A stretch of 64,000 nt of DNA. Origin: Tubiluchus corallicola. Lineage: Eukaryota; Animalia; Priapulida. Each line of letters starts with the position of its first letter. Positions within the stretch are counted from its first letter, which is position 1. The translations under genes were made by a program, and so were the position numbers. Location: positions 560,282 to 624,281 of the forward strand of contig JAQGDQ010000016.1 of NCBI GenBank assembly GCA_030141605.1. Reading direction: 5' to 3'. A model generated the notes under the pieces. It saw nothing but the letters and a program-made list of their open reading frames with translations. It had not been told where the DNA came from and made no database searches. Positions 41,885 to 64,000 of this stretch are shown piece after piece.

Positions 41885-43896
41885 TCACCTGCAAACAATG
41901 TATAAGTTCAGTATTGTAACTACTGCAACTTTCGTGTGTACTTCTATGAATTTTTTAAGTTCAAAATAAAAACACATTTTCTTACTGCTTGTTTACTTGC
42001 TTGCTTACCTAACTCAAGGCTAATTTTTTCGTTTTTAGAAATGTAACAGTTGCTGGGCAATAACAGCGGTAAGTGACCTTTACTTGTAGTAGCTTTTGAC
42101 GTTTATTATCTACATACATATTTCAAGTGCGTTGTTTTAACAAATTAAGTGTCGCAATAGTTTTCATTGGATTTTTTTTTTAATATATGTGTATTTAATT
42201 ACTTACACAATTAATACTAATATAAAATGAATGACCATAATCCTACTGAACTATTCCTACATGAATTTAAAATGATTGACAGCGTAATCACGCGCATACA
42301 TATACATGTGTATAGTTCAGGCTGTGACTTTGTCTTAAATGAAAAACTTTGAGACTCAATTCAGAGAAATAAATTCAAGAAAAACATAAAATTTGTTAAT
42401 ATTAATATTAATATTAAGTTTAACAAAAAACACTGGCCACTCAAAGATACTGTACACACATCCGAAAACCTAGTAATTGGTATCACCGAAACTTGTTTGA
42501 GCAAAAAAATATCAAGCAAATCTTTACAATTACCTAAGCACATTTTAATGCGAAAAGACAGATGCAATTCGAAAAAAGAAGGAGCGGTAGTTATTTACAT
42601 CCCAGCACATTTCAAATCAACTGAAACAAAAGGCAAGCAACTTGAACGAGCTGTTTTCGAAAACAAGCGTATCCTTATAATGGGAGATTTTAACATTGAC
42701 ATTAATAATACCAAAAATCCTGAATGCAAACAATACATTGAAGTATTAAATAAATAAATTCTATCTAAATGTAGTAAAAGACAAATCGACAAGAATATCT
42801 AAAACATCATCTACATTAATTGACCACTTCATCTCAGATGATAATACAAAATTTGTGTCCCACGACAGCTGCCCTTGTGATTATTCTGATCATAATTTTG
42901 TTATTATAGCGGATCAAAAATCCCCATCATCGAATTTTGACTCAAATCCATCATACAAACTTATGAGAGACTACAAACAAATTCAATAAGACATATTTTC
43001 TTGCCAATTTAGTTAAAATGAGTTGGAAAGAAATCTATTACACTACTAATGTTGATGCCCAAGTTGAACTTATTACAAATAATATTGAATACTGTCTTAA
43101 TTTGCACGCCCCCTATAAACGTATAAAAACTTTTGCTCAACCCGAACGTAAGCGAAATACTAAAAGTTTATGGACTACTCAAGAACTGGATTCGCTAAGA
43201 ACAACGAAACAATACTTAAATAAATTGTGGACAACTACCAAATCTAAACATAATTATAATAATTATAAAAAAGCGAGAAATTCATTTAATAATCTAAACA
43301 AATCTTTAAAAAACAAATATATACAGCAACAATGTAATAATGCAATCACTTCTAAAAATAAATGGAAAATAATTAAAAATGTCATCAACAGATATAAAAA
43401 CAAGCAAACCCATATCACCGAACTTATAATTGACAACAAAGTAATAAAGAAAACTAAAGATATTGCAAATGCCCTTAATGCCACTTTCATTAATTTGGGA
43501 AATTTCTGCTGGCCAGCAATTCATAACAGTAACTACAGTAACATAATTTCGAAATTAAAAATAAAATTAAATACTAACACAACTTTATCGTTTTCCACCA
43601 TTACCACAAATCAAAATTAAAAATACATACATTAAATCGTTTTGAAAACCCTACATATGTTAATGATAATATATATTCATCCGCAATTTTTTTACCCACG
43701 TCCATGTTAAATTGTACGTATATATTGTATATAGTCTATATTTTAATTTTTGTGTAACACTGTAGTATATATTTTGTTTTAAATTTTTGGCACAGTAATT
43801 TTTAGTTTGCCCTGGACGCATTTAATTTTCTCATGCTGCGATGTTTTTTTATGCTTTTATGCTTATGAATATCGATTTTTTATGGCAAATAAAGAT

Positions 43897-50857: not shown

Positions 50858-54475
<3,618 letters not shown>

Positions 54476-54575
54476 CTTAAAAATCAGTCACTATGATCAC
54501 AATTTTAAGCACTGCAACAATTTATAGCAAACATAACTTGTGTATTGAGAACCCCCTTTTCCATTTAAGCTATAT

Positions 54576-55005
54576 TGTGCTGATTTGTTTAAACTTGTGT
54601 TGCCCCCTCTTTTCTGTTATAAACTGGTTTCCTTTTAAACAGGTCATGTGACCAGACTTTTACCTGTACACTTACCTGTAGATTGGAGTAACTCAGGTGT
54701 TCACACACTGCAGTGACAAATTGTTTAGCGTCAGTCATTGATTTGTTGTTATAATTTCATAATTACACTTATAGAAGATCACCATGTAAGTTGATTTCTT
54801 AATTTCTTAAATGTTAAACTTTGTTTATTAAAAAGACTAGAGATTAGATTGTGTAATTTACCTAAAAGTTTGTTAAAGTTAATTAGATCAATTTAGTTTA
54901 GATTTCGCCGTAAAATTGAGTAAATTTATCTTATTTGTTTTCAGATTAAACGATACAAGCTACACAATTATGTTGTTGGAGTTTTTTTTATAAGAAGGTA
55001 GCACA
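54576..55005 (+). repeat. 5' LTR
   Basis: Matches 61956-62385 with 7 substitutions (all transitions) and no indels. Confidence 0.98.
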
Positions 55006-55235
55006 GTTTAATATGATTCTGGGTGTAATTGACATGGACGACAGCTATACCGTGTGTCCTTGAGCCAAGCTGGTATCTGGGGCAACACTGCAGAGCGGTT
55101 TAACTTCGAGCTATGCTACGTGTTCTGGACTATACCTGATAGTATTATATTGACAATGAAGCCAGCGCTGCTGTACGATACTACAGGATTTTACATTACC
55201 AGCAAGTAGAAATATATTTGGACTTTTAAAGCAAA

Positions 55236-56795
55236 ATGACTGATCCTTCAAACCAAATTCAGTTGAGAAAACTTGAACTTAAAAATAAAAAGCAAGAAGA
55301 ATTAAGAGATATCCTTCGTGAAAGAGGGTTGATAGTTCATGGTAATAAAGCTGAATTAGTCACGAGGATAATCGAAGATGAGCAGTCACGATTGCAAGCA
55401 GCAAGCACTCATGACAAGGAAGCCGGAGCTGATGCGGATGAAAAATCAGCAAAAGCAACTTCAGAGCGGAAAAGCAAGCATAGCGCAAAGGGAGCTGAGA
55501 GGGATTCTCAATTCGCATCTTCCAAGACAGCTTCAAAGATGAGTGAGAGAAAGTTACGACTTCATGAACTGAAAATACAAGAGCAGGAATTAAAGCTGCA
55601 AGCAATGAAAATAAGGCATGAACGTTTGCAGAGTGAATTCTCAGGTGAGCAGAAGTCGCAGGTAACTGGCATTGAACCAGCCAATTATGTGGCGCCACCT
55701 GTTGCCGAAAAATCGACTAAACAAAAGGTCGCTGAGTGGTTGAAGCAATCTGAAGACGTATCTGCAGATTTGCAACAAATAAGTGGAAAGCTTGAAGGCT
55801 CCAATAGTACAAATAAATACAAAACGGAAGCCTTCGTAACTCTTGCAACAAATGACAAGTATGCTTTAGGCGCTTTAGTTTTAGCAAGCAGCCTGCGTCG
55901 TGTTAGTACAGCTCGTTACTTAACTGTCATGGTCACAAATAATATATCGCAAAATATGATGAGGCATCTTCGCGATAAATTTGACTATGTTCAACTAGTT
56001 GAAACAATAGATAGTAATGATCCAGAAAACCTGTATGTATTAGGAAGACCTGAGCTGAATGTAACCTATACCAAATTACATTGTTGGCGCCTCACACAGT
56101 TTAGCAAGTGTATTTTCTTGGACGCCGATACGTTGGTCCTGCAAAACATTGATGAACTCTTCCAAAGAAAAGAGTTTTCAGCAGCACCTGACGTCGGATG
56201 GCCCGACTGTTTTAATAGCGGCGTGTTTGTGTTTCAGCCAAGTATTGACACGTTCAATCGACTTGTTTCGTTTGCGACGTCCACGGCTAGCACGTTTGAC
56301 GGAGGTGACCAAGGAATGCTAAACCAGTACTTTAGTAATTGGGCTACAGATTATGAAAAACATTTACCTTTCGTTTACAATACTGCAATGCAAGGGCAAT
56401 ATAGTTACCAAAACGCCATCAAGAATTTCGGCGAGAATATCAAAGTTGCTCATTTTATAGGTGCACACAAGCCTTGGGATGATATCCATAATTCACGACA
56501 CAGGTACGTGGCTCCTCCTATGGGCGACGCAAGGTATGAATCAAGAATATTCAGCGAGTGGTTTCATATTTACAATGCTGACGTTATGCCTATGTTACAG
56601 AAGCAACGTAAATGTAATGAAGCGCGATATAATTTCCGTGATTTTAAAAACTTGCCCGCAGATGACTTAAATGTTTCAGCACCCACATTTGCCCCCGGGT
56701 TTCCAAGTAAAAGCGTGAGCCTTTGCTCAACCTCATACGTAGGCAAACATAAACAACTGCCAGCAACGTCGGCTATAGATGAACCTACTCGCTGA
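55236..56795 (+). CDS. N-terminal Gag-side ORF (519 aa): SAP domain, coiled coil, glycogenin (GT8) catalytic domain, PAM2-like motif; in frame with downstream Gag-Pol across one TGA
   Basis: SAP pattern EELRDILRERGLIVHGNKAELVTRI; glycogenin motifs AFVTLATND.Y, TKLHCW.LTQFSKCIFLDAD, SAAPD.GWPDCFNSGVFV, FDGGDQG.LN, HLPF.YN, YSY, HFIG..KPW; then LNVSAPTFAP. Confidence 0.95.
   Translation: MTDPSNQIQLRKLELKNKKQEELRDILRERGLIVHGNKAELVTRIIEDEQSRLQAASTHDKEAGADADEKSAKATSERKSKHSAKGAERDSQFASSKTASKMSERKLRLHELKIQEQELKLQAMKIRHERLQSEFSGEQKSQVTGIEPANYVAPPVAEKSTKQKVAEWLKQSEDVSADLQQISGKLEGSNSTNKYKTEAFVTLATNDKYALGALVLASSLRRVSTARYLTVMVTNNISQNMMRHLRDKFDYVQLVETIDSNDPENLYVLGRPELNVTYTKLHCWRLTQFSKCIFLDADTLVLQNIDELFQRKEFSAAPDVGWPDCFNSGVFVFQPSIDTFNRLVSFATSTASTFDGGDQGMLNQYFSNWATDYEKHLPFVYNTAMQGQYSYQNAIKNFGENIKVAHFIGAHKPWDDIHNSRHRYVAPPMGDARYESRIFSEWFHIYNADVMPMLQKQRKCNEARYNFRDFKNLPADDLNVSAPTFAPGFPSKSVSLCSTSYVGKHKQLPATSAIDEPTR
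55824..56597 (+). other. GYG1: Captured, intronless glycogenin catalytic domain (about residues 197-454 of the ORF)
   Basis: Colinear with human glycogenin-1 residues ~3-265 as I recall the sequence, at an offset of about 194: D296-A-D298 = D102/D104 and Y389 = acceptor Y195. The symbol indicates family, not orthology. Confidence 0.95.
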
Positions 56796-59700
56796 TTGCA
56801 ATGGATGGACCAGCCTCAGAACATGACAGCATTCATGAATATCATGCGTGAGGGACAGCGTCAGCAAATGAACATGTATAATGCCATGCAGCTTCCTGCA
56901 GTTGAGCTTGAAAAATTTGATGGCAACGTGATGCATTTCTGGCATTTTATTAAGCGCTTCGAGGCCAGTGTAGAGAATTACACAGAAGATGAGGCAGCAA
57001 AATACACAAGGTTACTACAACTCTGCACTGGACGAGCTAAGGCTGTCGTGGAGAGTTGCCATTATATGGATCCCCATATGGCCTTTAGACGTGCTAAGTA
57101 TTTGCTAACAGAACGTTTTGGATATCCCTACATGGTAACTCAGGCTTGGTTGGATAAAATTAACAATTTTAGTTGTATAAAAATACAGGAGCCAGAAAAG
57201 TTACAGGAGTTCTCAGATGCACTTGTTGGGTGTATTGAAACATTAAAATGCATGAACAATTTGAGTGAAATCAATACTCAATCCGGTTTACTGCAAATTA
57301 TTAGAAAGCTGCCATATAAGTTCCAAGACAAATGGAAGGATGTTGTGTGCCGGTTACTGAAGACGCAAAACAGGAACCCATCCATATATGATGCAGTTGA
57401 CTTTGTGAAAGAAGCAGCAGAGAAGATGAATCATCCAGTATATGGAGAATTGTATAACAATGGCCCAAAGAGAGTAAAGCAAGGCAGTGCAGCCAAAAAC
57501 TTTGCGAGCATTTCTAGAAATATAGCAACTCCTGGTGCTTCTACGCAAGTTACAAGGGTGAAAGAACGCAATCTAGAAGAGAGCAAGAAGCCAGGAAACA
57601 ATGGCAAACAATGCTTGTTGTGCAACTCGGCTGAGCATGTATCATTACAAAAATGCAAAAAATTTAGCACGATGAATGACATCGAAAAATTGGCATACAC
57701 AAGGAAAGAACGTTTGTGCTACAATTGCCTGGCTAAAGGGAGACACAGAGCCTACCAGTGTACAAAACCACCCTGCGATGTGAATGGATGCAACCGGAAA
57801 CACTCTTCCTTACTTCATCATGCATTAGAAAGAAATGCACAAGCGCGGCAGAACGATGCAGCTAGCCAAACGGAAATGGATCGGCAAAGCACAACTCGAG
57901 CAGTCTCGTGTCTAAATAAAGCTTCCTACACAGTTACAAAGGCGGCGTTACCAGTACTGCCAGTCTTAGTACATGTAGAAGGGAAACGACCTGTAAAAAC
58001 ATTGGCATTATTAGATCCAGGTTCTACAAACACCTTTTGTTCAAAAGCACTGTTTAATCAACTTGGAGCCAAAGGAAAAGAAAATGTTCTGTTGTTAACT
58101 ACTATAGACAAGAAACATAGCAGGACTGACACTATGGTAACTAGCATGACAATCATGAGGATGGATAGAAACAACCATATAGAGCTCCCTTGTGTATTTG
58201 TTCGGCCTACTCTCATGTTAGATGTTCAATCTCTAGCAACAGTTGAAGATGTGATAAAATGGCCGCATCTCCGAGACTTAGATGATGTTCTAAAGAGCAT
58301 AGAGAAGAAAGATCAAATGGAATTAGGTCTCTTGATTGGTCAAGATGTCGGTGAAGCATTAATTCCCCTGGAAGTAAGGACGGGAGAAAAGGACGCCCCA
58401 TATGCCATTAGAACCAAACTAGGTTGGACGCTTAATGGCCCTATAGGGGGCGGTAGAGTCAATATGTCAGTAGCAAATAACATGATTTTAATGAACGAAA
58501 TGCAGAACCAGGATGAAATACTGCAAAACCTCGTTGAGAGATTTTGGAAATTGGACAGTGTAGATAACGATAGACGTCTGTCCAGAGAAGACATTAAAGT
58601 ACTAGATATTTGGGAGAAATCAATCACAAAACGAGGTGACCATTATGAACTGCAGATACCATTCAAAGAGGAAAAATGCAAATTACCAAATAGCCGGGAG
58701 ATAGCAGAAAAGAGGCTGGCTAGTTTGGGCACCAGACTAAGCAAGAATCTAAAATTACATGAAAAATACACCGAGGAAATGAATGATTTACTTAGAAAGG
58801 GATATGCGGAGAAGGTTGAAGAAGCAGACGACCAAGATGACACAATGAAATGGTATCTCCCACATTTTCCTGTTTATAATGAAAATAAAGCTGACAAAAC
58901 TCGGATAGTTTTCAATTGTGGAGCGAAATGTGATGGCATCTCGCTGAACATATTAGCATTACAGGGACCTGATCTGACCAATACACTTCTTGGAGTATTA
59001 TTGCGGTTCAGGGAGAAGCCCGTTGGAATGATGGCAGACATAGTGGGCATGTTTCATCAAGTCTTCGTTGCTCCTCAGAACAGAGACATGCTACGCTTCC
59101 TATGGTGGCCAGATGGACAATTGGATAAACCACCACAAACTTATAGGATGACAGTGCATTTATTTGGAGGGGTTTGGTCCCCTAGTGCAGCATCCTTTGC
59201 AGTCAGGCGCACAGCAACAGATAACGTGGAAAACTTTGACTATGAGGCAGTCAGTACTGTACTGCGCAATTTCTACGTTGACGACTGCTTGAAATCCGTG
59301 GATATAGCAGAGCAAGCTATTAACCTGATTTCTTGCTTGACTGCCTTACTTGCCAAGGGAGGCTTTTGTTTAACCAAATGGACCAGCAATATCAAGCAGG
59401 TTTTAGCAGAAATCCCGGAGGAGCACAGAGGCAAACTGGTTCAAAATTTAGACTGGGCTCATGATCCACTTCCCATTGAGCATGCCCTTGGGGTCAAATG
59501 GGAGGTCGAAGGAGACACCTTTGGAATCCAGGTCAAAACTAGGGATAAACCTCACACCAGGCGAGGACTTCTAAGCTCACTGGCTTCGGTATACGATCCC
59601 CTAGGAATGGTAAACCCATTTGTCTTGCAAGCAAAATTGCTTTTCCAGGATGAATGCCGCATCAAAACAAAGTCTTGGGATGATAAATTGGAGGATGCAA

Positions 59701-59933
59701 CTGAGAAGAAATGGATTAAGTGGAAGAGCGAATGCCAACTTCTAGAGAGTTTAAAAATGAGCCGTTGTGTGAAGCCTTGCGATTTTGGCACGGTTTTGAC
59801 AAGTGAACTGCACCACTTTTGTGATGCATCGCAATATGCATACGGAGCTGTTAGTTATATACGATTAACGAATGACTGTGGTTCAGTTCATGTATCATTC
59901 CTAATGGCAAAGTCTCGTTCTAGCGCCAATTAA
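56796..59933 (+). CDS. BEL/Pao Gag-Pol, part 1: DUF1759 capsid region, three Cys/His knuckles, aspartic protease, reverse transcriptase, start of RNase H
   Basis: LEKFDGN..HFW.F; CLLC..H..C, CYNCL..H...C, C...C...HSSLLH; ALLDPGS (58014); WYLPHFPV, GPDLTN.L, ADI..MF.QV, H.FG...SP, YVDD (59274-59285); LHHFCDASQYAYG. Confidence 0.96.
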   Translation: MQWMDQPQNMTAFMNIMREGQRQQMNMYNAMQLPAVELEKFDGNVMHFWHFIKRFEASVENYTEDEAAKYTRLLQLCTGRAKAVVESCHYMDPHMAFRRAKYLLTERFGYPYMVTQAWLDKINNFSCIKIQEPEKLQEFSDALVGCIETLKCMNNLSEINTQSGLLQIIRKLPYKFQDKWKDVVCRLLKTQNRNPSIYDAVDFVKEAAEKMNHPVYGELYNNGPKRVKQGSAAKNFASISRNIATPGASTQVTRVKERNLEESKKPGNNGKQCLLCNSAEHVSLQKCKKFSTMNDIEKLAYTRKERLCYNCLAKGRHRAYQCTKPPCDVNGCNRKHSSLLHHALERNAQARQNDAASQTEMDRQSTTRAVSCLNKASYTVTKAALPVLPVLVHVEGKRPVKTLALLDPGSTNTFCSKALFNQLGAKGKENVLLLTTIDKKHSRTDTMVTSMTIMRMDRNNHIELPCVFVRPTLMLDVQSLATVEDVIKWPHLRDLDDVLKSIEKKDQMELGLLIGQDVGEALIPLEVRTGEKDAPYAIRTKLGWTLNGPIGGGRVNMSVANNMILMNEMQNQDEILQNLVERFWKLDSVDNDRRLSREDIKVLDIWEKSITKRGDHYELQIPFKEEKCKLPNSREIAEKRLASLGTRLSKNLKLHEKYTEEMNDLLRKGYAEKVEEADDQDDTMKWYLPHFPVYNENKADKTRIVFNCGAKCDGISLNILALQGPDLTNTLLGVLLRFREKPVGMMADIVGMFHQVFVAPQNRDMLRFLWWPDGQLDKPPQTYRMTVHLFGGVWSPSAASFAVRRTATDNVENFDYEAVSTVLRNFYVDDCLKSVDIAEQAINLISCLTALLAKGGFCLTKWTSNIKQVLAEIPEEHRGKLVQNLDWAHDPLPIEHALGVKWEVEGDTFGIQVKTRDKPHTRRGLLSSLASVYDPLGMVNPFVLQAKLLFQDECRIKTKSWDDKLEDATEKKWIKWKSECQLLESLKMSRCVKPCDFGTVLTSELHHFCDASQYAYGAVSYIRLTNDCGSVHVSFLMAKSRSSAN

Positions 59934-61872
59934 GGGTCTCACAATTCCCAGACTGGAGCTGTGTTCAGCAGTACTAGCAGCAACAATGGACAAAATCCTA
60001 AGAGACGAGTTGTCTTTATACATAGATTCCTCAACTTTCTGGACTGATAGTGTCATAGTTCTGCAATATATAAGAAACACTACAAAACGGTTTCACACGT
60101 TTGTGCAGAACAGAGTGACTCAGATTCTTGAAGTTTCATCTCCCATGCAGTGGCATCATATAAATTCACTGGAGAACCCTGCTGACGACGTCTCCCGTGG
60201 GATGGATGCGGCTTCCTTGATAGCCTTGGAAAGATGGAAACATGGACCAAGTTTTCTGCTAGAAACTGAAGAACATTGGCCACAACTGAACATAGATGCA
60301 GAGAAAGACAGGATAGAAAACGACAAGGAAGTCAAGAAAGTGGCTGCAGTTAACAACATTGAAGCGAAAAGTGAAGCAGATGTAGATGTCATCAATCAGC
60401 TGATAAAGCATTACTCATCGCTATATCGATTAAAGAGAGCGGTAGCATGGATACTGAGAGTCAAAAGAACACTTCTAGCTAAAATTAAAGGAAAAGATCT
60501 CACTGAACTGGCTCACCTGGCAAAGCCTGAACTGGATGGAGCCTTACACGAAATTACAAGGCATGTACAACGAGAATGCTTTGGTGCTGAACGTAGAGCA
60601 CTAAAGTCAAAGGATCAGCATGTCGCAAAGTCAAGCACCTTATACAGACTAAACCCATTTATGGACGAAAAGTGTATCCTGCGTATTGGAGGCCGCCTGA
60701 AGAGATCAACCATGAATAGAGAAGTAAAGCATCCAATTATTCTACCTAAAGGTCATAGACTTTCTCGGCTTATTGTAAAACAATTCCATGAAGAGAATGG
60801 TCATGTTGGAAGAGACCATGTAATGGCATTGGTAAGAGCAAAGTTCTGGATCGTAGGCATAAGAGTGATTGCTCGACAAGTTTGCCATGAATGTAGAGAA
60901 TGCCGACTACGTCATTCGCAACCTATGAAGCAGAAGATGGCTGACTTGCCGAAAGAGAGGATTGAATGTACTGATGTGTTCTCTGTGGTTGGAGTGGACT
61001 GTTTTGGTCCTTTTCTTGTCAGACGTGGCAGAGTAGAAGTAAAACGCTATGGACCACTATTTACGTGTCTCTCAACTAGAAGTATCCACTTAGAAGTGCT
61101 ATACGCCATGACAACGGACTCTTTCATCAAAGCTTTACACAGATTCTGCAGTAGGAGAGGAAAACCCACCAAGATTAAATCAGATTGCGGAACGAATTTT
61201 GTGGGTGCAGACAAAGAGCTGAAGAAGTCACTGTTGGAATGGAATCAGGACGTAATAAGCAATGAGCTACTGCAGAAAGATATTGAGTGCCAGTTTAACC
61301 CTCCAAATGCACCCCATATGGGAGGAATATGGGAAGCTATGATAAAAAGAGTAAAGAAAGTGTTACAGTCAGTAATGATGGAGAAAATCACCGATGACGA
61401 AGGCCTACACACACTATTTTGTATAGTGGAAAACATTATCAATAGCAGGCCTCTAACGACACTTTCTGATGATCATGCAGACTTTAACCCTTTGACGCCA
61501 AATCACCTTTTGCAGATTCATTGTGAAACCAGCCTACCACCTGGCAAATTTGTTTTGGCAGACATCTACAGAAAGAAATGGCGGCAGATTCAGCATTTAG
61601 CAAATGTCTTCTGGCATCGATGGCGAACTGAGTATTTGCCAATGTTACAGTACCGCTCTAAATGGAACAAAGAGAGAAGGAACATCCAAGATGGAGATGT
61701 CGTTCTCATCATGGACAATGCTCCCAGAAATTGCTGGTTGCTAGGGCGCGTGATTGAAAGACATTTTAGCAATGATGGATTAGTCAGAAGTGTCACCCTC
61801 AAGACCAAGGATGCACTTCTACGAAGACCCATCCACAAGCTCTGCCTGATAGAAAGTGTATATGATAATTAG
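59920..61872 (+). CDS. BEL/Pao Pol, part 2: rest of RNase H, integrase (HHCC, DDE) and DUF5641, after a 1-bp frameshift
   Basis: Removing one T at 59918-59919 restores KSR-LAPIKGLTIPRLEL. Then FWTDS, NPADDVSRG, H...GH...C..C, GVDCFGP, SDCGTNF, GGIWE, LTPNHLL and DGLVRSV. Confidence 0.95.
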   Translation, partial: LAPIKGLTIPRLELCSAVLAATMDKILRDELSLYIDSSTFWTDSVIVLQYIRNTTKRFHTFVQNRVTQILEVSSPMQWHHINSLENPADDVSRGMDAASLIALERWKHGPSFLLETEEHWPQLNIDAEKDRIENDKEVKKVAAVNNIEAKSEADVDVINQLIKHYSSLYRLKRAVAWILRVKRTLLAKIKGKDLTELAHLAKPELDGALHEITRHVQRECFGAERRALKSKDQHVAKSSTLYRLNPFMDEKCILRIGGRLKRSTMNREVKHPIILPKGHRLSRLIVKQFHEENGHVGRDHVMALVRAKFWIVGIRVIARQVCHECRECRLRHSQPMKQKMADLPKERIECTDVFSVVGVDCFGPFLVRRGRVEVKRYGPLFTCLSTRSIHLEVLYAMTTDSFIKALHRFCSRRGKPTKIKSDCGTNFVGADKELKKSLLEWNQDVISNELLQKDIECQFNPPNAPHMGGIWEAMIKRVKKVLQSVMMEKITDDEGLHTLFCIVENIINSRPLTTLSDDHADFNPLTPNHLLQIHCETSLPPGKFVLADIYRKKWRQIQHLANVFWHRWRTEYLPMLQYRSKWNKERRNIQDGDVVLIMDNAPRNCWLLGRVIERHFSNDGLVRSVTLKTKDALLRRPIHKLCLIESVYDN

Positions 61873-61945
61873 TTTTCTTAGTAATTGACACATTACTTAA
61901 AATGTTAATTAAAGGAGATAATGTAAATGCTAAAAGGAAGCATTT

Positions 61946-61955
61946 AAGGGGGCGG
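61946..61955 (+). other. Polypurine tract
   Basis: AAGGGGGCGG immediately before the 3' LTR TG. Confidence 0.85.
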
Positions 61956-62385
61956 TGTGCTGATTTGTTTAAACTTGTGTTGCCCCCTCTTTTCTGTTAT
62001 AAACTGGTTTCCTTTTAAACAGGTCATGTGACCAGACTTTTACCTGTACACTTACCTGTAGATTGGAGTAACTCAGGCGTTCACACACTGCAGTGACAAA
62101 TTGTTTAGCGTCAGTCATTGATTTGTTGTTATAATTTCATAATTACACTTACAGAAGATCACCATGTAAGTTGATTTCTTAATTTCTTAAATGTTGAACT
62201 TTGTTTATTAAAAAGACTAGAGATTAGATTGTATAATTTACCTAAAAGTTTGTTGAAGTTAATTAGATCAATTTAGTTTAGATTTCGCCGTAAAATTGAG
62301 TAAATTTATCTTATTTGTTTTTAGATTAAACGATACAAGCTACACAATTATGTTGTTGGAGTTTTTTTTATAAGAAGATAGCACA
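61956..62385 (+). repeat. 3' LTR
   Basis: 430-bp direct repeat of 54576-55005, followed by TATAT. Confidence 0.98.
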
Positions 62386-62599
62386 TATATGATGTGGAAA
62401 AACTTTTATGAAGATCCTGCAGTACCATTTAGAAAAAAATTATGTCACTCTTTGATGTGGGATATCAACACTATGTTCCCCCAAAATTCTCTTACATTAC
62501 TTCTATGTAGAATCTCGTAGCCATTACGTAGGATAAATTGTTAGAATGTCAGTTCTTCCTCTCAGGATGTCAAGGCCACATTATTTCATTTTAGGGAAA

Positions 62600-62900
62600 A
62601 ATATATCTATGTTAACGGCCATGTATGAAATTCAGACATTTTACAAAAATTCCTAGGCATTTCATATAACATCTATGCATTTCAGCAAAAGTGAGAAATA
62701 AATTTTTTGCGGCGACTCTTTCACACTTTACCTAGGCGTTTCGTATAATAGCTAGGAATTATGTAAAATGTGTAAAGTGACTTTGGCAATGTGTAAAATG
62801 TACATATTTCGCCTTGAATCGAACTTTTCCTAGCTATTTTGTACATTACTTAGGCATTGCAATGGAATGCATAAAACGATTTAGTCAATGTGCTAAACTA
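62600..62900. repeat. Degenerate short-motif repeat with inverted arrangement (CCTAGGCATT / TGTAAAATG), probably a non-autonomous element
   Basis: Recurrent CTAGGC(A/G)TT, TGTAAAATG and CATTTTACA motifs in both orientations. Confidence 0.4.
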
Positions 62901-63812
62901 AGTAAGCTATTCAAGTAAGCCGGTGAGTTAATTATTTTACTGTAACGACATCCTGCTGAATCAGATGGATCACTTTCCATAGCTTGGAATTAATACTGCA
63001 GCCAGGATTCAGTAAAGTTTCTAAGAACAATGTTCTTCATAAGTTTACGCAAACCGACATTCTTAGCGCCACACACAGATTCGTTAAACCGGTTTTCTTA
63101 AAGATCTTCTTAAGCGTGAGGCTTAGAGTTTGCATAAAAACAATTTTCCATGTTGTGCTTAGTTTAAAGGCAGTGTAAATTGTTTTCGTATTATTTTTCT
63201 TGCCAGATGGCAGCATCCAGCTTAAAGAGTTTAATACGCGCACAACAGTAGGGCCTATTTATAACCTGTACTCCACAATAATTATAAAGATCCTACAAAA
63301 GCTTTTCCATACGGTACAAAAGTTTAGATATTGTAAACGCTGCAAAACGCTTATCAAGGTGTAAACTTGCAGCAGACTAATTTGTGAACAAAAATTGGTG
63401 TCCTTTGCAGCACTTATAGTGTTTAGTACGTCTATACGAAGAGTGTGTATACCTTATCAAGACGAAATAGTACTTTTGTCACATTGTTATTTAATTTATT
63501 TCCTGTTATTCCATTAAAAATTGTTTTAACAATGGGTAAACGTAATAATGAGCGATTTTCGTAGGCTAATTCCAGCTGAACTAATAATGGACTTATAAAC
63601 ACTACTCGCTTCTTTCTTCTATAAACGATGGGAAATAATGTTCTCTAGGCTTACAAACAACTTTTTCACTGTTTCATTTACGTCAGATTGCTTTCATCTG
63701 TAAGAGACGTTGATGATCTCTATATAGGTCTGTGTTTTCGTGATTCTGAAATGCTATAAACATGTAAACTTTTTGACAACCACCTGGGCACGTATAAGCG
63801 TAGGTATACCAT

Positions 63813-63814
<2 letters not shown>

Positions 63815-63898
<84 letters not shown>

Positions 63899-63914
63899 TC
63901 TCTGTCTCTCTATC

Positions 63915-64000
<86 letters not shown>
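63815..64000. repeat. (CT)n microsatellite running off the window
   Basis: Directly visible. Confidence 0.98.

What the first reader, a model, noticed from the sequence alone, without database searches (positions are those of the whole stretch)
55236..56795. BEL/Pao retrotransposon carries a complete glycogenin enzyme inside its Gag region
Seen: between the two LTRs, the first ORF contains an uninterrupted, intronless ~260-aa glycogenin fold in the same frame as the capsid (DUF1759) and Pol. It is flanked by sequence that looks like Gag N-terminal region (coiled coil, KVAEWL, low-complexity linker). Known: glycogenin is the self-glucosylating GT8 primer of glycogen synthesis, normally an intron-containing host gene; BEL/Pao elements normally encode gag-pol and sometimes env. 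I know of no report of glycogenin cargo in an LTR element. Inference: a host mRNA was captured and kept as a Gag domain, so virus-like particles might self-glucosylate, nucleate or bind glycogen. That could coat particles, target them to glycogen-rich germline cytoplasm or shield them from host defence.
Basis: partly seen in the sequence, partly recalled or inferred. Interest (0 to 1): 0.96.

Follow-up and report, generated by a model that had tools for sequence, protein, structure and literature searches.

The report
Glycogenin enzyme inside retrotransposon Gag
A family of jumping genes in an animal carries an intron-free copy of the catalytic part of glycogenin, the enzyme that starts glycogen, inside its own coat-protein gene, where it would likely put a self-sugaring enzyme on the particle surface, although its activity and its use to the element are untested.

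Summary
The domain is real. A 7.8-kb BEL/Pao element (430-bp LTRs, 98.4% alike, TATAT target duplication) has a 261-residue intronless glycogenin catalytic domain between its SAP/coiled-coil Gag start and its capsid. It keeps the DxD motif, His406 and acceptor Tyr389 (63 of 65 near-invariant positions) and lacks the glycogen-synthase docking tail. 'Uninterrupted' is wrong for this copy: a stop precedes the capsid and a frameshift lies in RNase H. Contigs from two samples bridge both junctions, lack the stop (10 of 10), and include an 87%-identical decayed copy. So this is a small family, not a misassembly or one-off. No protein with both domains topped a search of 1.84 billion representatives, ten literature searches showed no report, and this scan had no look-alike. 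Selection on the enzyme is not shown: the one copy-to-copy test gave omega 0.43-0.60 (p 0.05-0.18), no intact copy was seen, and the host gene was unavailable. Best reading: a captured, probably still active self-glucosylating module on the particle surface (0.5). Main rival: a tolerated passenger (0.33).

The parts
54571..54575 (.). Target-site duplication TATAT, left copy (right copy 62386-62390)
54576..55005 (+). 5' LTR, 430 bp, TG...CA ends
   Evidence: 7 mismatches to the 3' LTR, all transitions (98.4%)
55006..55235 (+). 5' leader; no TGG-starting primer-binding site directly after the LTR
   Evidence: the usual PBS form is recalled
55236..56795 (+). First open frame, 519 aa: SAP, coiled coil, glycogenin domain, Gag linker; ends at an in-frame stop in this copy
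55278..55379 (+). SAP domain at the Gag N-terminus; also found in a GT8-less relative (P0284/P0379)
   Evidence: E 3.8e-8
55545..55742 (+). Charged coiled-coil-like stretch and VAEWL motif, as in the Gag starts of some relatives
   Evidence: coiled coil read by eye; V..WL upstream of the capsid in P0241, P0250, P0312
55821..56603 (+). Intronless glycogenin (GT8) catalytic domain, residues 196-456
   Evidence: best identity 59.6% among 334 full-domain hits
56121..56129 (+). D296-A-D298, the DxD metal-binding motif (GYG1 102-104)
   Evidence: role of DxD recalled
56400..56408 (+). Y389 (acceptor, GYG1 Y195) and Y391 (dimer contact, GYG1 Y197)
   Evidence: PMC12267440 passages
56451..56453 (+). 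H406 (GYG1 H212)
   Evidence: role as metal ligand recalled
56604..56792 (+). Gag-type linker with a PAM2-like motif (residues 478-487, 56667-56696); no synthase-docking motif
56793..56795 (+). In-frame stop, seen only in the window copy
   Evidence: absent from 10 of 10 contigs covering the place in 4 runs
56916..57341 (+). Capsid region (DUF1759, PF03564)
   Evidence: E 7.9e-8
57612..57818 (+). Cys/His zinc-knuckle nucleocapsid region
   Evidence: motif scan
58008..59555 (+). Protease (LLDPGS at 58008) and reverse transcriptase (FYVDD at 59271)
   Evidence: RT 53-55% identical to the closest relatives
59556..60051 (+). Peptidase_A17 / RNase H region, split by a frameshift near 59920 in this copy
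   Evidence: profile 1-117 in one frame, 118-162 in another; not shared by much of the laid depth
60757..61872 (+). Integrase (H2C2, core, DUF5641) and end of Pol
61936..61955 (+). Purine-rich tract before the 3' LTR
61956..62385 (+). 3' LTR, 430 bp
54338..54475 (-). Host aquaglyceroporin exon (first NPA) about 100 bp from the 5' LTR; the element lies antisense on its intron side

Best explanation
This is a BEL/Pao retrotransposon family whose Gag carries an intronless glycogenin catalytic domain, likely captured from a messenger RNA, which would be made as part of the Gag-Pol protein and is predicted to sit on the outside of the particle as a probably still active self-glucosylating module. 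Shown: the order SAP - coiled coil - GT8 - PAM2-like linker - capsid - NC - PR - RT - RH - IN; all core residues kept; synthase-docking tail missing; several copies carry the fusion. Inferred: (1) capture by template switching during reverse transcription, before the split of two lineages now about 13% apart; (2) one polyprotein in the parent element, as in full-length relatives; (3) an outer position, because it lies N-terminal to the capsid, whose N-terminal domain forms the outer layer in Ty3; (4) dimers add a short glucose chain to Tyr389 from UDP-glucose; (5) without the tail it cannot dock glycogen synthase itself, so the product would be a short sugar coat, or a tether to host glycogen particles through pairing with host glycogenin.
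For: Every glycogenin-invariant position checked by name is kept, including D296, D298, H406, Y389, T277, D355, D358 and the dimer contacts W322, D355, Y391 (contacts from PMC12267440). 63 of 65 near-invariant columns are kept, against 18 of 88 variable columns matching the host majority (131 non-redundant hosts). The flanks are Gag: SAP-coil-capsid relative without GT8; PAM2-like motif in the pre-capsid region of 6 of 12 and 5 of 22 GT8-less relatives (the two sets are not checked for redundancy), against 0 and 2 downstream hits in 12,645 and 21,051 residues. Both junctions are bridged by contigs, the 5' one in two samples. The diverged, dead copy is changed at 3 of 15 near-invariant codons in residues 363-442 and the window copy at none. 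If the window lineage drifted 4-6.5% since the split, losing at most 2 of 65 has p 0.06-0.003. Ty3: CA-NTD forms the protruding outer capsomers, 540 copies (PMC6525542 passages).
Against: The direct test is not significant: 9 synonymous, 18 missense and 1 nonsense change among 28 listed differences; omega 0.43-0.60; p 0.05-0.18. The 3 hits at near-invariant codons equal the neutral expectation of 3.6, and their all falling on one side has p about 0.17. At 2.5% drift the retention test gives p 0.28. An open frame is required anyway for capsid and Pol downstream, so it says nothing about the enzyme. The conservation pattern could be inherited from a fast-evolving donor gene (6 of 131 hosts are as far from the majority at variable columns). 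Four positions invariant in 40 hosts differ (293, 361, 393, 443), and the near-identical copies share a change at near-invariant A394. No intact copy was seen: other copies carry their own frameshifting indels. Closest Gag-Pol relatives lack the domain (0 of 12 and 0 of 23), so it is not needed for the life cycle.
Confidence: 0.5

Rival explanations
1. Tolerated passenger: a glycogenin mRNA piece landed in frame in the variable Gag linker, is carried because the frame stays open, and is decaying neutrally; the intact active site reflects a short stay.
For: Copy-to-copy omega not significantly below 1, and near-invariant codons are hit at the neutral rate overall. Few copies, all seen damaged. 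CpG content of GT8 plus linker (o/e about 1.1) has not fallen to that of gag-pol (about 0.5; Fisher p 4e-4). The Gag N-terminal region of relatives varies widely in length.
Against: The cut is clean: the whole catalytic domain and almost nothing else. Best database identity is only 59.6%, matched by 3 of 334 host glycogenins, and the branch is the longest in the tree (0.88, median 0.2). Two-base changes at conserved P393 and W443 are shared with the diverged copy. The window lineage has changed away from the host majority at 380, 384, 392 and 439 since the split while losing no core residue.
Confidence: 0.33
2. Retained as a dimerisation or binding module, not for catalysis: the domain pairs Gag molecules, or binds host glycogenin or glycogen, and keeps the fold with relaxed catalysis.
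For: Dimer contacts W322, D355, Y391 are kept. Changes cluster next to the acceptor arm (392-397) and near the C-terminal helix (439, 443). A non-glucosylating human paralogue, GYG2, still acts by binding (PMC12267440 passages).
Against: The nucleotide-sugar and metal-binding residues are all kept, which a scaffold would not need.
Confidence: 0.09
3. Re-aimed glycosyltransferase: the domain adds sugar to another acceptor, such as Gag itself or a host defence protein.
For: A glycogenin-like enzyme acts on Skp1-linked glycan (PDB 6mw5). The synthase tail is lost.
Against: Acceptor Tyr389 and Tyr391 are both kept, and sequence and fold are much closer to GYG1 than to 6mw5 (299 vs 110 bits).
Confidence: 0.06
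4. Assembly artefact or single-locus retrocopy inserted after integration.
For: No long read spans the whole element, and no genome is held.
Against: Independent contigs bridge both junctions, and two lineages about 13% apart both join GT8 to the Gag linker.
Confidence: 0.02

Closest known systems
BEL/Pao LTR retrotransposons (Belpaoviridae) of marine invertebrates, e.g. P0379 (ENA, unnamed), Diadema XP_072171548.1, Patiria XP_038061736.1, Lineus XP_064647481.1
   Same: LTRs, domain order PR-RT-RH-IN, DUF1759, Peptidase_A17, DUF5641; capsid up to 44%, RT up to 55% and IN up to 54% identical to the nearest hits; SAP-coil-capsid layout in P0284/P0379.
   Different: A 261-residue glycogenin domain inside the Gag linker; none of the 35 relatives scanned against Pfam has GT8.
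Glycogenin-1 (GYG1, CAZy GT8; PDB 3u2w, 3t7m, 1ll0)
   Same: Fold (TM 0.84, 52% identity), DxD, His, acceptor Tyr and dimer contacts.
   Different: Embedded in a Gag polyprotein; no C-terminal GN34 synthase-docking tail (PMC9188544); intronless; rare residues at 293, 361, 393, 443.
LTR retrotransposons with captured enzymes: AlkB demethylase in orchid Gypsy (PMC9289625), GDSL esterase, DEDDy exonuclease and dUTPase in rotifer elements (PMC5408684), extra domains in planarian Burro (PMC6431247)
   Same: A cellular enzyme domain carried by an LTR element family.
   Different: Those are Gypsy-type, mostly a separate ORF or within Pol, and act on nucleic acids, nucleotides or lipids. This is a carbohydrate-priming enzyme inside BEL/Pao Gag. 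The plant screen section I read names no glycosyltransferase among the domains it describes. Activity was shown for AlkB and is not shown here.

Membership tests
BEL/Pao LTR retrotransposon | Two direct LTRs with TG...CA ends and a 4-6 bp target duplication | tested here: met
   430-bp LTRs, TATAT on both sides; rule from a PMC12440569 passage
BEL/Pao LTR retrotransposon | Domain order Gag-PR-RT-RH-IN with family profiles DUF1759, Peptidase_A17, DUF5641 | tested here: met
BEL/Pao LTR retrotransposon | Size 4.2-10 kb, LTRs 0.2-1.2 kb | tested here: met
   7,810 bp and 430 bp; range from a PMC3118150 passage
BEL/Pao LTR retrotransposon | RT groups with BEL/Pao in a tree | not tested
BEL/Pao LTR retrotransposon | tRNA primer-binding site after the 5' LTR | tested here: inconclusive
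   No TGG-starting site directly after the LTR; no host tRNA set to compare
BEL/Pao LTR retrotransposon | Intact coding region (autonomous copy) | tested here: not met
   Stop at 56793 and frameshift near 59920 in this copy; other copies have their own indels. This lowers 'active copy', not family membership
Glycogenin (GT8) | GT-A fold and sequence closest to GYG1/2 | tested here: met
Glycogenin (GT8) | DxD, His, acceptor Tyr and other core residues | tested here: met
   63 of 65 near-invariant columns
Glycogenin (GT8) | C-terminal glycogen-synthase docking motif (GN34) | tested here: not met
   Motif in 219 of 240 host hits, absent from ORF1 and from three frames of 56600-57000; so a glycogenin-derived catalytic domain, not a full glycogenin
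Glycogenin (GT8) | Self-glucosylation with UDP-glucose and Mn2+; homodimer | not testable with these tools
   Contacts W322, D355, Y391 kept; no assay, no complex prediction run
Fixed accessory domain of a retrotransposon family | Present in several copies of the element | tested here: met
   Near-identical copies and an 87% copy, in two samples
Fixed accessory domain of a retrotransposon family | Purifying selection on the domain within the element lineage | tested here: inconclusive
   omega 0.43-0.60, p 0.05-0.18 on 80 codons against a dead copy

The most novel reading that the evidence does not exclude
A retrotransposon that glycosylates its own capsid. Hundreds of glycogenin domains on the particle surface prime short glucose chains and pair with host glycogenin, so that particles are coated with sugar or hitch onto maternal glycogen stores and reach the germ line. 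This would be a link between a retroelement particle and glycogen metabolism that none of the searches here found described.
Probability: 0.25. Interest if true: 0.9.

Novelty: new variant of a known kind. Interest (0 to 1): 0.7.

Why it matters
Captured domains point to the host pressures that act on retrotransposons. The captured enzymes in the papers read act on nucleic acids, nucleotides or lipids. A carbohydrate-priming enzyme fused to the capsid protein would mean that particles can modify their own surface with sugar or attach to glycogen, a route to localisation or shielding not found in the searches. It also gives a natural tail-less glycogenin for asking what the catalytic domain does without glycogen synthase. 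The 261-residue domain can be assayed on its own. If it proves neutral, it remains a clear case of in-frame mRNA capture into Gag that spread with the element.

Tried and rejected
No genome is held, so no locus count, no target duplications of other copies and no host glycogenin gene. No RNA holder listed. Fusion searches: none of the best 120 of 299 longer proteins, the best 120 of 2,977 near-length proteins, the 12 Gag-region hits or the best 150 of 14,582 representatives shows both domains; a fusion should have outscored the single-domain hits. Six hits with GT8 far from the N-terminus have no retroelement domain. Viral contigs gave nothing for the domain alone and 5 distant GT8 loci for the alignment. 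The best 80 of 476 metagenome loci are 47-61% identical, and no Gag or Pol matched any of the 85 loci; that scan covered 46 of 64 parts. ESM Atlas gave no hit for the N-terminus and no host lineage from an aquaporin exon. The tree cannot name the donor: the row is long and its place unsure. No laid contig clearly represents the host gene at 80% or more over 56300-56610, but contigs do not show absence and conserved genes may be filtered, so this is not used. Programmed read-through at the stop was rejected because other copies have no stop there. A programmed frameshift near 59920 was rejected because it splits one domain and full-length relatives are single-frame. ORF retention was rejected as evidence of enzyme function. 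High CpG was rejected as a sign of a foreign donor: 80 other glycogenin sequences range 0.22-1.52. The GYG1 P238 position is uninformative because it is variable or gapped in invertebrates; the numbering table was offset by a script error and replaced. Pfam PAM2 did not hit the element's linker and hit one relative only at E 0.48. Depth figures were used only as rough guides. No complex prediction was run, since a textbook dimer would pass by likeness.

Full report
Verdict. The glycogenin domain inside the Gag region is real and belongs to a small family of BEL/Pao elements. This copy is broken, and whether the domain works for the element is open.

The element. LTRs lie at 54576-55005 and 61956-62385 (430 bp, TG...CA, 7 transitions, 98.4%), with TATAT on both outer sides and a purine-rich tract before the 3' LTR. 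Three open frames follow. 55236-56795 has SAP and GT8. 56796-59933, in the same frame after one stop, has DUF1759, zinc knuckles, protease, RT and most of Peptidase_A17. 59905-61872, in another frame, has the rest of that domain and integrase. Full-length relatives are single polyproteins of 1,700-2,000 residues, so the stop and the frameshift are lesions. LTR divergence predicts about 54 substitutions and about 2 nonsense changes in the coding region since insertion (assuming 4% of changes are nonsense), which fits. The element lies antisense next to an exon of a host aquaglyceroporin gene. No genome is held and the host lineage was not determined.

The domain. Residues 196-456 match rabbit and human glycogenin-1 at 293-299 bits. 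The model (pLDDT 79) overlays human GYG1 with TM 0.84. It has only 3 one-residue gaps against its best hits, so no intron. Every glycogenin-invariant position I checked by name is kept: D296-A-D298, H406, T277, D355, D358, K280, Y389, Y391, W322. Y195 as acceptor, and Y197-D160-W128 as dimer contacts, come from passages of PMC12267440. D159, D162 and T82/T83 appear in PDB titles. The roles of DxD and the histidine are recalled. Against 131 non-redundant host glycogenins, 63 of 65 near-invariant columns are kept, while 18 of 88 variable columns match the majority (hosts: median 1.00 and 0.34; 9 and 6 hosts are as low). The synthase-docking motif, which I wrote as a pattern from memory, occurs in 219 of 240 host hits and not in the element. 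PMC9188544 (passages) shows that this C-terminal region anchors glycogen synthase. Best identity is 59.6%, and only 3 of 334 host domains have a best non-redundant hit that low. The branch is the longest of 50 (0.88, median 0.2) and its place is unsure (49 rows picked by me from the hits).

The flanks are Gag. P0284/P0379 runs SAP, serine-rich stretch, coiled coil, linker, Gln-rich helix, capsid, with no GT8. It aligns to the element from residue 490 across the stop into the capsid. V..WL and PAM2-like motifs occur upstream of the capsid in GT8-less relatives. So the domain was inserted into the variable pre-capsid linker. CpG o/e is 1.08 in GT8 and 1.21 in the linker, against about 0.5 in gag-pol (Fisher p 4e-4), which fits a later addition.

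Other copies. Six runs were listed and four hold part of the stretch (two samples, two studies); no RNA holder was listed. In one search, three of the longest listed contigs bridge the N-terminus/GT8 junction (X1 55653-56036, X3 55121-55945, X4 55737-55971; 3-6 differences). One bridges GT8 into the capsid (X4 55973-57307). A copy with 69 differences in 522 bases (87%) bridges GT8 into the Gag linker past the stop position (X1, X2). All 10 contigs covering 56793 lack the stop, and the frameshift is not shared by all of X1's depth and part of X2's and X4's. Other copies have their own indels, so no intact copy is shown, and no contig spans the whole element. Those tables showed only the best-supported rows (40 of 636 differences, 32 of 2,668 pieces). 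In X2, where one haplotype is about depth 5, the diverged copy is about 1 and the near copies about 4-5 such units (rough). Part of the diverged type also appears in X3.

Selection. Over residues 363-442 the diverged copy differs from the window at 28 listed places (the piece table counts 33 up to 56610; 5 are not listed). By hand, with the codons, these are 9 synonymous, 18 missense and 1 nonsense, plus a 1-base gap. The expected synonymous share is 0.18-0.23, giving omega 0.43-0.60 and p 0.05-0.18. That copy is dead, so neutral decay is mixed in. It is changed at 3 of 15 near-invariant codons (neutral expectation 3.6 for the pair), the window at none, and the near copies at one (A394). At 380, 384, 392 and 439 it has the host-majority residue, so the window lineage kept changing after the split. 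Losing at most 2 of 65 near-invariant residues has p 0.28, 0.06, 0.01 or 0.003 for 2.5, 4, 5.5 or 6.5% neutral drift; the true branch length is not known. N393 and F443, each two bases from the conserved residue, are shared with the diverged copy and so predate the split, in the element or in its donor. An open frame is needed for the downstream capsid whatever the domain does. The evidence leans towards constraint but does not prove it.

How it most likely works. Shown: layout, residues, copies. Inferred: an mRNA was captured by template switching and trimmed to the catalytic domain, and the parent element made one polyprotein. The region N-terminal to the capsid would face outward: in Ty3 the CA-NTD forms the protruding capsomers of a 540-copy shell (PMC6525542 passages), and that BEL/Pao follows this is assumed. 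Crowded dimers would glucosylate Tyr389 to a short chain (chain length of about ten residues is recalled). Without the docking tail they would not recruit synthase directly, so the result would be a short sugar coat, or a tether through pairing with host glycogenin. The element's protease might also release the domain. I give this 0.5, a neutral passenger 0.33, a non-catalytic pairing module 0.09, a re-aimed transferase 0.06 and an artefact 0.02.

Novelty. No protein with both domains appeared in three word-index searches or among the best 150 hits from 1.84 billion representatives with a GT8-plus-Gag query, where the top score (359 bits) is a Gag-only match. None of 35 Gag-Pol relatives scanned has GT8. 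Ten literature searches were answered. Those joining glycogenin or glycosyltransferase with retrotransposon terms (10, 39, 100) listed no such case by title and abstract start; two searches listed all of their 16 and 9 papers, one search listed 15 of 46. Precedents for captured enzymes: PMC9289625 (abstract and section 12), PMC5408684 and PMC6431247 (passages). PMC3118150 and PMC12440569 (passages) give the family features. No supplements were read; the full domain chart of PMC9289625 is in one and could bear on the claim. Repbase, Dfam and subscription papers were not searchable. This scan had no look-alike sequence and no finding with both key words. Unchecked notes on Tpt1 in a Copia Gag and on glycogenin domains fused to PKS or RNase III are parallels only.

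Scores. New variant of a known kind; interest 0.7. Most novel reading, a self-glycosylating particle tied to glycogen: probability 0.25, interest 0.9.

Noticed in passing
window 56667-56696; P0242, P0243, P0244, P0246, P0247, P0250, P0253, P0255, P0256, P0354, P0375: A PAM2-like motif (consensus recalled; PAM2 binds poly(A)-binding protein) recurs in the pre-capsid linker of BEL/Pao Gags: 6 of 12 and 5 of 22 relatives, with 0 and 2 hits in the downstream 12,645 and 21,051 residues. The pattern was drawn up after seeing some of them, and Pfam support is weak. One literature search listed no paper on it.
   Followed up: partly
window 51400-54475 (-): Host aquaglyceroporin gene: exons near 54338-54475, 53200, 52660-52880 and 51400-51570. 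The element lies antisense about 100 bp beyond the first-NPA exon, probably in an intron; upstream exons were not found in 62386-64000.
   Followed up: partly
window 56317: In both samples one contig joins the GT8 sequence at this point to unrelated upstream sequence that ends like a splice acceptor. It could be a host exon, an inserted repeat or a truncated copy; unresolved.
   Followed up: partly
window 54576-55005 and 61956-62385: Summed contig depth on the LTRs is roughly 20-40 times that on the GT8 region in sample S1, with many different flanks at the LTR end. This suggests many solo LTRs or related elements, although depth is no copy number.
   Followed up: no
window 55006-55030: No TGG-starting primer-binding site follows the 5' LTR.
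   Followed up: no
window 58137-58266: All laid depth in runs X1-X3 shows an 8-base loss near 58259 and some a 5-base gain near 58137, while the window frame matches relatives there; the copies in those samples look broken at this point.
   Followed up: partly
window 42353-43620 (+): Two open frames (134 and 217 aa) that look by eye like fragments of a non-LTR retrotransposon endonuclease/RT region.
   Followed up: no
P0329, P0345: Large proteins (1,588 and 3,062 aa) with a glycogenin domain after 1,000-2,700 residues that match no Pfam family.
   Followed up: no
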